Positions 36,730-54,973 are shown, counted from the first letter of the stretch. The stretch is DNA of 64,000 nt from Escherichia coli (GCF_001677475.2 NZ_CP015229.1); one strand, 5' to 3'. Numbers and translations are program-made. The notes: generated by a model from the sequence alone, not told the origin.

Positions 36730-38709
36730 TCAGTGAGATTTGACTGATTTTACCCCCAGCCAGTCAATAATCCCCTGTGCCGCATGACGCCCTTCTGCCA
36801 TTGCGGTAACCACCAGATCAGCACCACGCACGGCGTCGCCACCGGCGAAGATTTTCGGATTGGTGGTCTGGTAACGGTACTGGCTTTCCACATCCGCGAT
36901 GATGCGGCCCCATTTGTCTACCGTTACACCGTGCGACTCCAGCCACGGCATCCCGTGTGGATTGAAGCCAAACGCCATAATCACCGCATCGGCTGGCATG
37001 ACAAATTCACTGCCCTCAATCGGTACAGGTCGCCGACGCCCCTGGGCATCCGGCTCGCCAAGACGCGTGCGCAGGAAACGAATCCCGCAAACGTGACCTT
37101 GTTCATTCAGCTCAAGCGCCACCGGCTGGACGTTAAATTCGAAGTTGGCCCCCTCTTCGCGGGCGTTCTTCACCTCTTTCTTCGAGCCTGGCATGTTAGC
37201 TTCATCACGACGATAAGCGCAGGTGACGTTACTCGCGCCGTGGCGCAGCGCAGTACGCACACAGTCCATCGCGGTGTCGCCGCCGCCCAGTACCACGACG
37301 TTAAGTCCGGCGGTATTGATAAACGGCTCTTCCGGTAGCTCTTCGAGCCCCATCACCTGTTTAGTGTTGGCGATGAGGAACGGCAGCGCGTCATAAACGC
37401 CCGGCGCATCTTCATTGGGTAAACCCGCTTTCATGGAACGGTAAGTGCCTACGCCAACGAAGACCGCGTCGTATTGTTCCAAAAGCGAATCCAAAGAGAC
37501 ATCTTTACCCACTTCACAATTGAGTTCGAAGTGAATCCCCATCGCGCTGAAGATTTCCCGACGGCGTGCCAGCAGGGATTTATCCAGTTTGAAAGAAGGA
37601 ATGCCGAAAGTGAGCAAGCCACCGATTTCTGGATGGCGATCGTACACCGTCACCGCCACGCCATTGCGGGTCAGAACATCCGCACAGGCCAGCCCCGCCG
37701 GACCTGCACCGATAATCGCCACCCGCTTGTCCACTTTGGTGACATGGCTTAAGTCAGGACGCCAACCTTTCGCCAACGCCTGATCTGAAATGTAGCGTTC
37801 AATGTTGCCGATAGTTACTGCACCGTGCTCATCGCGAATAGTACAGGCACCTTCACACAAACGGTCTTGCGGACAAACGCGTCCGGTAATTTCCGGCAGG
37901 GTGTTGGTCTGGTGAGAAAGCTCGACGGCGGCGTCGATGTTTCCGGCTTTCACCAGTTCAATCCACTGCGGTATATGATTATGCAGCGGGCAGGTCCATT
38001 CACAAACGCTGTGCTCGCCGCATTTAAGGCAGCGCGAGGCTTCCCGTTGTGCCTGATCGGCACGGAATGGCAGATAAATTTCATCAAAACCGGTTTTGCG
38101 CGCTTCAATCGCCAGTTTATCCGGCTCGCCACGCGCGGGCGTTGCCTGCATTTGTTCGACTTTACTCATTACCGGCATTTCTTGTGCCGCGGTACTGGCA
38201 TGCCACGGTTGATGTTCCTGACGTGCGGTGCGCAAGCGGCGGGATTTCGCCATGCCGGAGAGTGCGGCGTCAGTGACCAGTTGCAGCGCGTCTGCCGGGC
38301 AATTCTCGACACAGGCAGGACCGTTTTCGCGCCCTGCACAAAGATCGCATTTATGCGCCGTGGCTTTTACTTTTCCTGCCGCGACGGGTGTTAGGACGAT
38401 TTGCATCGTACCAAACGGACAGGCCACCACGCAGGATTTACAGCCAATACACTTTTGCTGATTGACCTGAATGCTGTCATCAACGTGGCTGATTGCGCCA
38501 TTAGGGCAGCTACGGGCGCAGGGCGCATCTTCACAATGGTGACAGGTCACTGCACTACGTTGCTGCTGATGTTTGATAACCGTAATTCGGGGATGAAAAT
38601 GGTGTTGGCTCAGGACATGTTGCTCATCATTGTGAGCCATGACACAGGCGATTTCACAAGCATGACAACCCAGACATTGCTGACTGTTGGCCATAATAAA
38701 ACGATTCAT
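36730..38709 (-). CDS. aegA: Fe-S cluster-containing oxidoreductase (ferredoxin-like N-terminus plus GltD-like FAD/NAD(P) domain)
   Basis: 659 aa with multiple CxxCxxCxxxCP motifs; matches AegA. Confidence 0.93.
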   Translation of the reverse strand: MNRFIMANSQQCLGCHACEIACVMAHNDEQHVLSQHHFHPRITVIKHQQQRSAVTCHHCEDAPCARSCPNGAISHVDDSIQVNQQKCIGCKSCVVACPFGTMQIVLTPVAAGKVKATAHKCDLCAGRENGPACVENCPADALQLVTDAALSGMAKSRRLRTARQEHQPWHASTAAQEMPVMSKVEQMQATPARGEPDKLAIEARKTGFDEIYLPFRADQAQREASRCLKCGEHSVCEWTCPLHNHIPQWIELVKAGNIDAAVELSHQTNTLPEITGRVCPQDRLCEGACTIRDEHGAVTIGNIERYISDQALAKGWRPDLSHVTKVDKRVAIIGAGPAGLACADVLTRNGVAVTVYDRHPEIGGLLTFGIPSFKLDKSLLARRREIFSAMGIHFELNCEVGKDVSLDSLLEQYDAVFVGVGTYRSMKAGLPNEDAPGVYDALPFLIANTKQVMGLEELPEEPFINTAGLNVVVLGGGDTAMDCVRTALRHGASNVTCAYRRDEANMPGSKKEVKNAREEGANFEFNVQPVALELNEQGHVCGIRFLRTRLGEPDAQGRRRPVPIEGSEFVMPADAVIMAFGFNPHGMPWLESHGVTVDKWGRIIADVESQYRYQTTNPKIFAGGDAVRGADLVVTAMAEGRHAAQGIIDWLGVKSVKSH

Positions 38710-53060: not shown

Positions 53061-53633
53061 TTGACACTGTCATCGCAACATTATCTGGTGATCACTGCGT
53101 TGGGTGCCGATCGCCCTGGAATTGTGAACACCATCACCCGTCATGTCAGTAGTTGCGGCTGTAATATTGAAGACAGTCGCCTGGCGATGCTGGGAGAAGA
53201 GTTCACGTTTATTATGCTGCTTTCCGGTTCATGGAATGCCATTACTCTGATTGAATCAACGTTACCGTTGAAAGGTGCCGAGCTGGATCTTTTAATCGTG
53301 ATGAAGCGCACGACGGCGCGTCCGCGTCCGCCAATGCCAGCATCTGTCTGGGTTCAGGTCGATGTGGCAGACTCCCCGCATTTAATTGAACGCTTCACAG
53401 CACTTTTCGACGCGCATCATATGAACATTGCGGAGCTGGTGTCGCGCACGCAACCTGCTGAAAATGAACGGGCTGCGCAGTTGCATATTCAGATAACCGC
53501 CCACAGCCCCGCATCTGCGGACGCAGCAAATATTGAGCAAGCATTCAAAGCCCTATGTACAGAACTCAATGCACAAGGCAGTATTAACGTCGTCAATTAT
53601 TCCCAACATGATGAACAGGATGGAGTTAAGTAA
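53061..53633 (+). CDS. gcvR: Glycine cleavage system transcriptional repressor (tandem ACT domains); TTG start
   Basis: 190 aa from (TTG)TLSSQHYLVITALGADRPGIVN; aagga lies 7 nt upstream of the TTG. Confidence 0.8.
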   Translation: MTLSSQHYLVITALGADRPGIVNTITRHVSSCGCNIEDSRLAMLGEEFTFIMLLSGSWNAITLIESTLPLKGAELDLLIVMKRTTARPRPPMPASVWVQVDVADSPHLIERFTALFDAHHMNIAELVSRTQPAENERAAQLHIQITAHSPASADAANIEQAFKALCTELNAQGSINVVNYSQHDEQDGVK

Positions 53634-54103
53634 TGAATCCACTGAAAGCCGGTGATATCGCACCGAAATTTAGCTTGCCGGATCAAGACGGAGAACAAGT
53701 TAATTTGACCGACTTCCAGGGACAGCGTGTTCTGGTTTATTTCTACCCGAAAGCCATGACCCCCGGCTGTACCGTACAGGCCTGCGGCTTACGCGATAAC
53801 ATGGATGAGTTGAAAAAAGCGGGCGTTGATGTGCTGGGTATCAGCACCGATAAACCCGAAAAACTCTCCCGTTTTGCGGAAAAAGAGCTGCTTAACTTTA
53901 CGCTCCTGTCTGATGAGGACCACCAGGTGTGCGAACAATTCGGCGTCTGGGGTGAAAAGTCCTTCATGGGCAAAACCTACGATGGTATTCATCGCATCAG
54001 CTTCCTGATTGACGCTGATGGCAAAATCGAACATGTCTTTGACGATTTCAAAACCAGCAATCACCACGACGTTGTGCTGAACTGGCTGAAAGAACACGCC
54101 TGA
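53633..54103 (+). CDS. bcp: Thiol peroxidase / bacterioferritin comigratory protein (peroxiredoxin)
   Basis: 156 aa with peroxiredoxin active site (PGCT); matches Bcp; start overlaps the gcvR stop. Confidence 0.95.
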   Translation: MNPLKAGDIAPKFSLPDQDGEQVNLTDFQGQRVLVYFYPKAMTPGCTVQACGLRDNMDELKKAGVDVLGISTDKPEKLSRFAEKELLNFTLLSDEDHQVCEQFGVWGEKSFMGKTYDGIHRISFLIDADGKIEHVFDDFKTSNHHDVVLNWLKEHA

Positions 54104-54298
54104 TTACTTTGCTCCATTCCGTGCTGGCTGCGCTTGCGGTCAGCACACCTCACTTCTCGTGATCAAGATCACATTCTTGCTTTCCCCTGCGACACGGGTG
54201 TCGAATTCATTTTTTGCTGAACGTTAATGACCATCATTTTTGTACCGTTCAGAATACAGTTAATTCATAACTTATTGAATATATTAAATTAATAAGAC

Positions 54299-54314
54299 TG
54301 GCATCCTTTATGCA
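54299..54314 (+). promoter_or_regulatory. Sigma-54 (-24/-12) promoter of the hyf operon
   Basis: TGGCAT-ccttt-ATGCA places GG and GC at the canonical spacing (consensus TGGCAC-N5-TTGCA); about 40 bp upstream of the hyfA ATG. Confidence 0.6.
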
Positions 54315-54355
54315 ATATGAAATGCAATGTTTCATATCATTTTCAAGGAGCCGAC

Positions 54356-54973
54356 ATGAACCGCTTTGTGGTGGCCGAACCACTGTGGTGTACAGGATGT
54401 AATACCTGTCTCGCTGCCTGTTCGGACGTGCATAAAACGCAAGGTTTACAGCAACACCCGCGCCTGGCCCTGGCGAAGACGTCAACACTCACTGCCCCTG
54501 TCGTGTGTCATCACTGTGAGGAAGCCCCTTGCCTGCAGGTCTGCCCGGTCAATGCCATCTCCCAGAGGGATGATGCGATCCAACTCAACGAAAGCCTCTG
54601 TATTGGCTGCAAGCTTTGCGCCGTGGTCTGCCCATTTGGCGCAATCAGCGCTTCAGGAAGCCGTCCGGTGAATGCCCCTGCGCAATATGTTTTTCAGGCT
54701 GACGGCTCACTCAAAGACGGCGAAGAAAACGCGCCGACCCAACATGCTTTGCTGCGCTGGGAACCGGGTGTCCAGACCGTCGCGGTGAAATGCGACCTGT
54801 GTGATTTCTTGCCAGAAGGTCCGGCCTGCGTTCGCGCTTGCCCGAATCATGCGTTACGGCTGATCACCGACGATAGCCTGCAACGTCAGATGAAAGAAAA
54901 ACAGCGCCTTGCCGCAAGCTGGTTTGCCAATGGCGGGGAGGATCCCCTTTCCCTCACTCAGGAGCAACGCTAA
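54356..54973 (+). CDS. hyfA: Hydrogenase 4 ferredoxin-type subunit (4Fe-4S)
   Basis: 205 aa from MNRFVVAEPLWCTGCNTCLAAC with several Cys clusters; matches HyfA. Confidence 0.92.
   Translation: MNRFVVAEPLWCTGCNTCLAACSDVHKTQGLQQHPRLALAKTSTLTAPVVCHHCEEAPCLQVCPVNAISQRDDAIQLNESLCIGCKLCAVVCPFGAISASGSRPVNAPAQYVFQADGSLKDGEENAPTQHALLRWEPGVQTVAVKCDLCDFLPEGPACVRACPNHALRLITDDSLQRQMKEKQRLAASWFANGGEDPLSLTQEQR

What the first reader, a model, noticed from the sequence alone, without database searches (positions are those of the whole stretch)
54140..54320. hyf control region: sigma-54 promoter with two upstream palindromes as candidate enhancer sites
A -24/-12 element (TGGCAT-N5-ATGCA, 54299-54314) sits about 40 bp before hyfA. 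Upstream of it lie a perfect 14-bp palindrome gTGATCaaGATCAc (54159-54172, two Dam GATC sites) and a second palindrome cgacacgggtgtcg (54190-54203). These are at the roughly 100-140 bp distance typical of binding sites for sigma-54 activators such as HyfR or FhlA. An AT-rich stretch in between could be the DNA bend site.
Basis: partly seen in the sequence, partly recalled or inferred. Interest (0 to 1): 0.45.

Follow-up and report, generated by a model that had tools for sequence, protein, structure and literature searches.

The report
Known hyf promoter; first palindrome binds CRP
This is the already well-studied control region of the E. coli hydrogenase-4 (hyf) operon: the sigma-54 promoter is real, but the first upstream palindrome is a near-consensus CRP (catabolite control) site, and only the second looks like the docking site for the sigma-54 activators FhlA/HyfR.

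Summary
All three elements are at the stated coordinates in the bcp-hyfA intergenic region of an E. coli strain (hyfA ATG = 54356).

- **Sigma-54 promoter.** TGGCATCCTTTATGCA (54299-54314) is the known hyf -24/-12 promoter. [quoted passage not shown]
- **Palindrome 1 (54159-54172).** It is not a perfect 14-mer: 6-bp arms flank a non-symmetric AA. It reads cGTGA-N6-TCACA and is the best CRP match in the 64-kb window. This exact 16-mer is the CRP ChIP-seq site for hyfA in ETEC H10407. It is a CRP site, not an enhancer for FhlA/HyfR. Its GATC sites are not conserved in other genera.
- **Palindrome 2 (54190-54203).** CGACA-N4-TGTCG fits the FhlA-type upstream activating sequence. That motif is about 40-fold enriched upstream of sigma-54 promoters of hyfA homologues in other genera, and the element is conserved in Citrobacter and Kosakonia. 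No binding data were found.
- **AT-rich segment.** It holds a conserved IHF-consensus match (54268-54280) and an unexplained invariant 16-bp block (54228-54243).

Verdict: an ordinary, already known promoter. Interest is low.

The parts
54121..54146 (+). bcp 3' hairpin (GTGCTGGCTGC-GCTT-GCGGTCAGCAC). It is the probable bcp terminator or stabiliser and marks the left boundary of the hyf control region.
   Evidence: It is the dominant structure in the RNA fold and appears as I2. It is retained in the 1127 hyf-less E. coli genomes, whose homology stops just after it. Citrobacter and Kosakonia have canonical terminators at the equivalent place.
54158..54173 (.). Its centre is at -160.5 from the predicted start.
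   Evidence: The CRP matrix was built from 106 ETEC ChIP-seq sites with this site left out. The site scores 18.7 bits, rank 1 of 63,985 positions, with 0 hits in 30 shuffles. The identical 16-mer is listed for hyfA in ETEC CRP ChIP-seq. hyfA is a known CRP target recovered by genomic SELEX. The half-sites TGA / ATCACA are invariant across three genera while the spacer varies.
54190..54203 (.). Its centre is at -129.5 from the predicted start.
   Evidence: It has the same form as elements in the K-12 hydN (CGACACTAGTGACG) and fdhF (CGTCAAAACTGACG) control regions. The motif YGWCR-N4-YGWCR occurs at 5.6 per kb upstream of sigma-54 promoters of hyfA homologues, against 0.14 per kb in adjacent coding DNA. 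CGACAC...TG.CG is invariant in Citrobacter and Kosakonia. Binding was not tested.
54228..54243 (.). Invariant 16-bp block TGACCATCATTTTTGT of unknown function. It may be a second activator contact.
   Evidence: It is identical in 10 E. coli alleles, 4 Citrobacter and 2 Kosakonia (Y at one position), at 70-72 bp from the -24 element. It is absent from the other FhlA-regulon promoters.
54268..54280 (.). IHF-consensus match TAACTTATTGAAT (YAANNNNTTGAWW, the reverse complement of WATCAANNNNTTR). Its centre is at -52 from the predicted start.
   Evidence: It matches 8 of 9 specified positions. Equivalent matches lie 24-25 bp from the -24 element in all 8 aligned sequences and in several more distant hyfA/hycB-type promoters. 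The pattern alone is not above chance in the window.
54299..54314 (+). Sigma-54 -24/-12 promoter TGGCATCCTTTATGCA.
   Evidence: The K-12 sigma-54 ChIP-seq motif ATGGCATCCTTTATGCA is marked confirmed in EcoCyc. It is the highest RpoN holoenzyme SELEX peak. TGGCA...TGC is conserved in Citrobacter and Kosakonia.
54325..54326 (+). Predicted transcription start.
   Evidence: The rule of Bonocora et al. (motif centre + 19) gives 54325, which is 31 bp before the ATG and equals their tabulated distance. My recollection of the primer extension in Skibinski 2002 (30 bp upstream) gives 54326. That paper could not be read here.
54345..54350 (+). Shine-Dalgarno sequence AAGGAG of hyfA.
   Evidence: Sequence. 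The CAAGGAGCC block is conserved across genera.
54356..54973 (+). hyfA (hydrogenase 4 subunit HyfA, 205 aa).
   Evidence: ORF list and RefSeq annotation of the matching E. coli records.

Best explanation
This is the regulatory region of the hyfABCDEFGHIJR-focB (hydrogenase-4) operon, and it works as a composite sigma-54 promoter.

1. RNA polymerase with sigma-54 sits as a closed complex on TGGCAT-N5-ATGCA (54299-54314).
2. An enhancer-binding ATPase, either formate-activated FhlA or the operon's own HyfR, binds the CGACA-N4-TGTCG element (54190-54203, centre about -130). It may also contact the invariant block at about -90.
3. IHF probably binds the consensus match at about -52 and bends the AT-rich DNA, so the activator can touch sigma-54 and open the promoter. 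Transcription starts about 30 bp before hyfA.
4. The first palindrome (core 54158-54173, centre -160.5) is a near-consensus cAMP-CRP site. It lies exactly 31 bp, three helical turns, upstream of the activator site and puts the operon under catabolite control.

What is shown: sigma-54 occupancy and CRP occupancy of these exact sequences (published ChIP-seq and SELEX), and cross-genus conservation of all elements and their spacing.

What is inferred: FhlA/HyfR binding to palindrome 2, IHF binding, and how CRP helps.
For: - Identity of the region: 100% match to the E. coli bcp-hyfA intergenic region, and 96% to K-12.
- Sigma-54: K-12 ChIP-seq site OS23 has the same 16-nt core, a predicted start 31 bp from hyfA, and is marked confirmed in EcoCyc. 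It is the strongest RpoN SELEX peak.
- CRP: the site scores 18.7 bits and ranks 1st in the window. The exact 16-mer lies under a CRP ChIP-seq peak in ETEC. hyfA is listed as a known CRP target and was recovered by SELEX.
- Activator site: the motif form matches elements in the hydN and fdhF control regions. It is about 40-fold enriched upstream of sigma-54 promoters of hyfA homologues, at -57 to -185 from the -24 element. The E. coli site is at -102, as in C. freundii.
- Geometry across Escherichia, Citrobacter and Kosakonia: CRP to activator site 31.0 bp in 8 of 8 sequences; activator site to block 30.5-31.5 bp; IHF-like centre to the -24 element 24-25 bp.
- Parallel case: fdhF has the same order, with a CRP ChIP site 33 bp upstream of the FhlA-type element and then the sigma-54 promoter.
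- Loss of hyf: in 1127 hyf-less genomes the CRP site is gone and palindrome 2 has decayed, while the bcp hairpin is kept.
Against: - No footprint or ChIP data for FhlA or HyfR at hyf could be found or read. Skibinski 2002 and Leonhartsberger 2000 are not held.
- Palindrome 2 scores only 5.6 bits with the published FhlA matrix, because of its G+C-rich centre and C at position 1.
- The loose pattern YGWCR-N4-YGWCR occurs 12 times in the window against 5.6 expected.
- Only one strict copy is present, whereas several other promoters of this family carry two or three.
- Palindrome 1 also gives the best FhlA-matrix score in the region at 9.6 bits, so some activator contact there is not formally excluded.
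- The IHF pattern alone is not above chance.
- One E. coli strain (CX04) carries a change in each palindrome.
Confidence: 0.72

Rival explanations
1. One reading: both palindromes are enhancer (UAS) sites for FhlA/HyfR, in the way many sigma-54 activators use tandem dyads.
For: - The palindromes share the same 6-2-6 geometry and lie 31 bp apart.
- TGATCAAGATCACA is the best hit of the published FhlA matrix in the region, at 9.6 bits and in the top 0.03% of window 14-mers.
- Equivalent positions in Citrobacter and Kosakonia also score 8-11 bits.
Against: - Palindrome 1 fails both YGWCR half-sites: it has GAT and CAC in place of GWC.
- The bases invariant across genera are TGA and ATCACA, which are the CRP contacts, while the spacer is free.
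- It is the top CRP-matrix hit and lies under a CRP ChIP-seq peak.
- The CRP and FhlA motifs overlap in outline (TG...N...CA), which explains the partial matrix score.
Confidence: 0.08
2. Palindrome 2 plus the following T-run (CGACACGGGTGTCG AATTCATTTTTT) is the intrinsic terminator of bcp, not a protein-binding site.
For: The terminator scan flags it, with a 5-bp stem, a 4-nt loop and a T-rich tail. It lies 87 nt after the bcp stop codon.
Against: - The stem is weak and is not formed in the minimum-energy or centroid fold. The strong hairpin at 54121-54146 dominates.
- In Citrobacter and Kosakonia the right arm is TGCCG, which breaks the pairing, and no T-run follows. The sequence motif itself is conserved, and canonical bcp terminators lie further upstream.
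- In hyf-less E. coli the dyad has decayed although bcp is intact.
Confidence: 0.07
3. Palindrome 1 is an FNR site (TTGAT-N4-ATCAA type) that gives anaerobic control, rather than, or as well as, a CRP site.
For: gTGAT-CAAG-ATCAc matches 8 of 10 FNR core positions. Myers et al. list hyfA among predicted FNR sites with prior evidence of FNR regulation.
Against: - The same paper classes the hyfA site as 'silent', with no FNR ChIP-seq peak.
- The outer bases are G and C (GTGA / TCAC), the CRP-type discriminator, rather than TTGA / TCAA.
- CRP ChIP-seq occupancy is documented.
Confidence: 0.08
4. The two GATC sites make palindrome 1 a Dam-methylation-sensitive switch.
For: Two GATC sites lie inside the site. 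From my own knowledge, CRP-protected, undermethylated GATC sites have been described at other E. coli CRP sites (Wang and Church 1992; Hale et al. 1994).
Against: - The GATCs are not conserved: 2, 1, 0 and 1 copies in the four lineages.
- GATC is part of the CRP consensus and occurs in many ChIP-seq CRP sites, so its presence follows from a near-consensus site.
Confidence: 0.05

Closest known systems
E. coli K-12 hyfA promoter (hyfAp; Andrews 1997, Skibinski 2002; EcoCyc/RegulonDB)
   Same: It is the same locus. Across the 252-bp intergenic region there are only 10 differences from K-12, and none lies in the CRP site, palindrome 2, the 16-bp block, the IHF-like site, the -24/-12 core, or the 5' UTR.
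   Different: It is a different allele: 96% identical to K-12 and 100% to strain MEI003. It has C instead of A at -27 and several changes in the AT-rich spacer.
E. coli fdhF promoter (FhlA- and sigma-54-dependent)
   Same: The order of parts is the same: a CRP ChIP-seq site, then an FhlA-type CGWCA-N4-TGWCG element 31-33 bp downstream, then a TGGCAT-N5-ATGCA sigma-54 promoter.
   Different: The activator site lies closer to the -24 element (about 78 bp against about 102 bp). There is no copy of the 16-bp block. From my own knowledge, the fdhF activator site has been characterised experimentally; the hyf one, as far as I could find, has not.
hyc/hyp and hydN FhlA upstream activating sequences
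   Same: They share the half-site YGWCR (TGTCG / CGACA / TGACG). The hydN element CGACACTAGTGACG is 11/14 identical to hyf CGACACGGGTGTCG.
   Different: Those regions carry several overlapping or tandem half-sites with A+T-rich centres. hyf has one dyad with a G+C-rich centre.
Class of CRP sites TGTGA-N6-TCACA
   Same: It matches 9 of 10 core bases with 6-bp spacing, and scores well above the median of ChIP-seq sites (18.7 bits against 12.9).
   Different: It sits at -160.5 at a sigma-54 promoter, not at the -41.5, -61.5 or -92.5 positions used at sigma-70 promoters. The activation mechanism must therefore differ and is not known.

Membership tests
Sigma-54 (-24/-12) promoter | GG and GC doublets in the TGGCAC-N5-TTGCW frame with fixed spacing | tested here: met
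   TGGCATCCTTTATGCA at 54299-54314, with GG at 54300-01 and GC at 54312-13. It scores 11.9 bits with the RpoN matrix.
Sigma-54 (-24/-12) promoter | Occupied by sigma-54 holoenzyme | not testable with these tools
   Published only. K-12 ChIP-seq peak OS23 lies on the identical 16-nt core, and it is the top RpoN genomic-SELEX peak.
Sigma-54 (-24/-12) promoter | Transcription start about 12 nt downstream of the GC, at a sensible distance from the gene | tested here: inconclusive
   The predicted start at 54325 is 31 bp before the ATG and equals the tabulated K-12 value. EcoCyc marks the promoter as confirmed. The primer-extension paper could not be read.
CRP binding site | TGTGA-N6-TCACA dyad with a high matrix score | tested here: met
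   cGTGA-TCAAGA-TCACA scores 18.7 of 21.6 bits and ranks 1 of 63,985, with none in 30 shuffles.
CRP binding site | In vivo or in vitro occupancy by CRP | not testable with these tools
   Published only. The identical 16-mer is listed for hyfA in ETEC H10407 CRP ChIP-seq, and hyfA was recovered by CRP genomic SELEX.
CRP binding site | Half-sites conserved and spacer free in orthologous promoters | tested here: met
   TGA and ATCACA are invariant in 8 of 8 sequences from three genera, while the spacer varies.
FhlA/HyfR upstream activating sequence | Two YGWCR half-sites (TGTCG/CGACA/TGACG) separated by 4 nt | tested here: met
   CGACA-CGGG-TGTCG at 54190-54203. Its published-matrix score is only 5.6 bits.
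FhlA/HyfR upstream activating sequence | Located roughly 60-190 bp upstream of a sigma-54 -24 element | tested here: met
   It lies 102 bp upstream. Homologous promoters place the motif at -57 to -185.
FhlA/HyfR upstream activating sequence | Conserved in orthologous promoters | tested here: met
   CGACAC...TG.CG is invariant in Citrobacter (4) and Kosakonia (2). It has decayed in hyf-less E. coli.
FhlA/HyfR upstream activating sequence | Two or more copies per promoter, as in hyc/hyp, hydN and several other genera | tested here: not met
   Only one strict copy lies in the 252-bp region. A second, diverged contact at the 16-bp block is speculative.
FhlA/HyfR upstream activating sequence | Bound by FhlA or HyfR | not testable with these tools
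   No footprint, ChIP or EMSA data for hyf were found in the papers that could be read.
IHF site | WATCAANNNNTTR consensus between the enhancer and the promoter | tested here: inconclusive
   TAACTTATTGAAT matches 8 of 9 positions in reverse orientation. It is conserved in position in 8 of 8 sequences, but the pattern is at chance frequency in the window.
Rho-independent terminator (for palindrome 2) | Stable G+C-rich stem followed directly by a U-run, with pairing conserved | tested here: not met
   The stem has 5 bp and the T-run begins 7 nt after it. It is not in the minimum-energy fold. Pairing is broken in the other genera.

The most novel reading that the evidence does not exclude
With the CRP site and the CGACA-N4-TGTCG dyad it would form a phased array at 31-bp intervals. 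That would explain why HyfR activates hyf far more strongly than FhlA does (the HyfR/FhlA difference is from my memory of Skibinski 2002). It would also explain why CRP is needed at a sigma-54 promoter, with the same CRP-to-activator-site spacing reused at fdhF.
Probability: 0.15. Interest if true: 0.4.

Novelty: already known. Interest (0 to 1): 0.12.

Why it matters
It matters little beyond correct annotation. The hyf sigma-54 promoter and its CRP site are already in the literature and databases. The useful correction is that a GATC-rich palindrome upstream of a sigma-54 promoter should not be assumed to be an enhancer. Here it is a CRP site, and only the second dyad fits the activator motif.

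Three side results could interest people working on hydrogenase-4, which is notoriously 'silent' in E. coli:
- a conserved, unexplained 16-bp block;
- a fixed 31-bp CRP-to-enhancer spacing that is close to the 33-bp spacing at fdhF;
- natural promoter lesions: GG to GA at -24 in O157:H7, and a deletion scar in about 21% of complete genomes.

Tried and rejected
- **Terminator reading of palindrome 2.** Flagged by the scan, but rejected on the fold, on lack of conserved pairing, and on decay in hyf-less strains.
- **Dam switch.** Rejected on non-conservation of the GATCs.
- **Structured RNA.** No Rfam family covers 53900-54500; there is only a chance PhrS hit at E = 0.51 inside bcp.
- **Sigma-70 promoter.** None was found in 53500-54500.
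- **16-bp block as a small ORF** (M-T-I-I/T-F-V...). Rejected: there is no Shine-Dalgarno sequence, the start codon varies (ATG/TTG/CTG), and the downstream peptide and its length are not conserved (reading).
- **16-bp block as a known site, compared by eye with consensus sequences recalled from memory.** IHF matches 6 of 9. Fur matches 14 of 19 in E. coli but about 10-12 of 19 in the other genera. There is no convincing match to FNR, ArcA, NsrR, NtrC, TyrR or PurR. No copies lie in the K-12 hyc/hyp, hydN or fdhF regions.
- **Papers not held.** Skibinski 2002, Self 2004 and Bush and Dixon 2012 could not be read.
- **Broad ChIP literature search.** It returned nothing useful.
- **Genome collection scan.** It returned no Escherichia, so E. 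albertii, E. fergusonii and Shigella could not be compared.

Full report
**Where we are.** The finding lies in the 252-bp intergenic region between bcp (stop at 54101-54103) and hyfA (ATG at 54356). The region is 100% identical to E. coli strain MEI003 and 96% identical to K-12 MG1655. In both it is annotated as bcp, then hyfA, then hyfB. Of 5426 complete E. coli genomes, 4297 carry this region.

**Check of the observation.** All three elements are at the stated coordinates.
- TGGCAT-N5-ATGCA lies at 54299-54314, with GG and GC in the canonical sigma-54 frame.
- GTGATC-AA-GATCAC lies at 54159-54172 and contains two GATC sites.
- CGACAC-GG-GTGTCG lies at 54190-54203.

Neither dyad is a 'perfect 14-bp palindrome'. 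Each has 6-bp perfect arms around two central bases that are not self-complementary.

Two 6-2-6 inverted repeats in 252 bp are unlikely by chance (P about 0.004). The sigma-54 motif is not exceptional by sequence alone. The degenerate pattern is expected 0.71 times per window, and the site ranks only 7th in the window by a sigma-54 matrix. The stretch 54204-54298 is 76% A+T.

**The promoter is the known one.** Bonocora et al. [quoted passage not shown]
- its motif is ATGGCATCCTTTATGCA, on the + strand, upstream of hyfA;
- its predicted start is 31 bp from the gene;
- it is flagged as experimentally confirmed in EcoCyc.

The window has the same 16-nt core and differs only at -27 (C for A). Applying their rule (motif centre + 19) gives a start at 54325, also 31 bp from the ATG. 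The bcp-hyfA spacer is also the strongest RpoN-holoenzyme genomic-SELEX peak in K-12 (PMC8743547). From memory, Skibinski et al. 2002 mapped the start 30 bp upstream of hyfA and showed dependence on sigma-54, FhlA and HyfR. I could not read that paper.

**Palindrome 1 is a CRP site.** Extended by one base on each side it reads CGTGA-TCAAGA-TCACA, which is 9 of 10 core positions of TGTGA-N6-TCACA.
- I built a CRP matrix from the 106 other sites in the ETEC H10407 CRP ChIP-seq table (PMC4287617). The hyf site scores 18.7 of a possible 21.6 bits. It ranks first of 63,985 positions in the window, and none of 30 shuffled windows reaches that score. The median of the ChIP-seq sites is 12.9 bits.
- The same table lists exactly CGTGATCAAGATCACA as the site under the CRP peak at hyfA.
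- Shimada et al. list hyfA among known CRP targets that were also recovered by genomic SELEX.
- The published FhlA matrix (PMC7658346 Table 2, built from Schlensog 1994 and Leonhartsberger 2000, so independent of hyf) also gives its best regional score here, 9.6 bits. However, the site fails the G-W-C core of both FhlA half-sites.
- An FNR reading (8 of 10 core positions) is weakened by Myers et al., who class the predicted hyfA FNR site as silent in ChIP-seq.

**Palindrome 2 fits the FhlA/HyfR enhancer motif.** Elements in the K-12 hydN, fdhF and hyc/hyp control regions share half-sites of the form YGWCR (TGTCG, CGACA, TGACG, CGTCA) spaced by 4 nt. The hydN element CGACACTAGTGACG is 11/14 identical to hyf CGACACGGGTGTCG.

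I collected 45 loci encoding HyfA relatives from other genera. Twenty-eight have distinct upstream regions with a sigma-54 promoter. In these, YGWCR-N4-YGWCR occurs 25 times in the 160 bp upstream of the promoter, or 5.6 per kb. In the adjacent coding DNA it occurs at 0.14 per kb. The sequences are related, so the nominal P value overstates the case, but several genera contribute. The motif lies 57-185 bp from the -24 element. The E. coli element is at 102 bp, the same as in C. freundii.

There are caveats:
- The published-matrix score is only 5.6 bits.
- The loose pattern occurs 12 times in the window against 5.6 expected.
- Only one strict copy is present.
- I found no direct binding data.

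**Phylogenetic footprint.** Citrobacter (4 species) and Kosakonia (2 species) keep the gcvR-bcp-hyfA gene order. Their intergenic regions align with E. coli. Against a background that is otherwise largely diverged, the conserved islands are:
- the CRP half-sites (TGA / ATCACA), with a freely varying spacer;
- CGACAC...TG.CG;
- a 16-bp block, TGACCATCAYTTTTGT;
- an IHF-consensus match (YAANNNNTTGAW);
- the -24/-12 element;
- the ribosome-binding site.

The spacing is fixed:

| Interval | Distance |
|---|---|
| CRP centre to dyad centre | 31.0 bp in all eight sequences |
| Dyad centre to block | 30.5-31.5 bp |
| Block to -24 element | 70-72 bp |
| IHF-like centre to -24 element | 24-25 bp |

The GATC sites are not conserved (2, 1, 0 and 1 copies). 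This, together with GATC being common in CRP sites, argues against a Dam-based mechanism.

**Within E. coli.** In ten alleles spanning the identity range, both palindromes, the block, the IHF-like site and the whole 5' UTR are invariant, with one exception: strain CX04 has one change in each palindrome. Variation otherwise concentrates in the bcp hairpin, the short spacers flanking the two palindromes, and the AT-rich stretches between the 16-bp block and the -24 element.

**Terminator rival.** The scan flags palindrome 2 plus the T-run as terminator-like.
- The RNA fold is dominated by the hairpin at 54121-54146 and does not form the palindrome-2 stem.
- The other genera break the pairing (TGCCG) and lack the T-run. 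They have canonical terminators directly after bcp.
- In the 1127 genomes that lack hyf, the bcp hairpin is intact. The CRP site is missing, and palindrome 2 survives only as an asymmetric remnant, CAACACTCGTTTCA.

The palindromes therefore serve hyf, not bcp.

**Parallel with fdhF.** Reading towards fdhF in K-12, the order is as follows:
1. a CRP ChIP-seq site, CGTGATGGCTGTCACG;
2. 33 bp further on (centre to centre), the FhlA-type element CGTCAAAACTGACG;
3. then TGGCATAAAAGATGCA.

This is the same order of parts as at hyf, where the CRP-to-dyad spacing is 31 bp.

**Mechanism.**
1. Sigma-54 holoenzyme forms a closed complex at 54299-54314.
2. FhlA (formate-activated) or HyfR binds the dyad at about -130.
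3. IHF at about -52 probably bends the AT-rich DNA.
4. ATP hydrolysis by the activator opens the promoter, and transcription starts at about 54325/6.
5. cAMP-CRP at -160.5, on the same helical face as the activator site, adds catabolite control by an unknown route, perhaps bending or stabilising activator binding.

Sigma-54 and CRP occupancy are published for these exact sequences. Activator and IHF binding are inferred from motif, position and conservation.

**Verdict.** This is an already known regulatory region. Interest is low. The only open item is the invariant 16-bp block at about -90, which matches no site I could recognise.

Noticed in passing
window 54228-54243: The 16-bp block TGACCATCATTTTTGT is the best-conserved element of the intergenic region. 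It is invariant in 10 E. coli alleles, 4 Citrobacter and 2 Kosakonia, at a fixed 70-72 bp from the -24 element. It matches no binding motif I could recognise and is absent from the other FhlA-regulon promoters.
   Followed up: partly
L054 (E. coli O157:H7 Z1826), equivalent to window 54299-54316: The O157:H7 lineage has TGACAT instead of TGGCAT at -24, losing the invariant GG, and ATGCAT instead of ATGCAA. The variant is identical in 139 complete genomes, including EDL933 and Sakai. The hyf sigma-54 promoter is probably dead there.
   Followed up: partly
L002 2501-2600 (ST131), compared with window 54104-54222: 1127 of 5426 complete E. coli genomes (e.g. ST131, Nissle) lack hyf and share one bcp-yfgO junction. 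It looks like a deletion between two GCTGAA microhomologies, the left copy at window 54215-54220. The scar keeps the bcp hairpin, lacks the CRP site, and has a decayed palindrome 2.
   Followed up: partly
L051 (strain Res13), equivalent to window 54302-54315: A 14-bp tandem duplication, CATCCTTTATGCAA, lies inside the -24/-12 element in one pig isolate. It keeps one intact TGGCAT-N5-ATGCA frame.
   Followed up: no
window 54315-54337: A perfect 8-bp inverted repeat, ATATGAAA-N7-TTTCATAT, straddles the predicted transcription start. A direct repeat ATGCAAT occurs at 54310-16 and 54322-28. Both are invariant in E. coli but absent from Citrobacter and Kosakonia. They could be an operator, or could be chance.
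   Followed up: partly
L005 19470..19260, minus strand (K-12 fdhF upstream): fdhF has the same architecture as hyf: a CRP ChIP-seq site 33 bp upstream of the FhlA-type element, then the sigma-54 promoter. This suggests a shared CRP-plus-FhlA design in the formate regulon.
   Followed up: partly
window 54121-54146: A strong hairpin lies 18 nt after the bcp stop codon, with an 11-bp stem and no T-run. It is conserved even in hyf-less strains and is the probable bcp 3' end structure. The window allele has T at 54140 and C at 54146, where K-12 has C and T.
   Followed up: partly
window 38631-38646: TGTGAGCCATGACACA is the 6th-best CRP-matrix hit in the window. It is the exact site listed for aegA/narQ in the ETEC CRP ChIP-seq table.
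   Followed up: no
window 54465 and 54623, minus strand (inside hyfA), and 58787, plus strand: Several sigma-54-matrix hits score as high as or higher than the real hyf promoter (AGGCGCGGGTGTTGCT, CGGCGCAAAGCTTGCA, TGGCATGGTTATGGCA). They are probably chance, but intragenic sigma-54 sites are known in E. coli.
   Followed up: no
Related-loci result: The scan of one genome per species returned no Escherichia or Shigella locus for HyfA; the best hit was Citrobacter amalonaticus at 71%. Close-relative comparison therefore had to come from the E. coli genome collection only.
   Followed up: no
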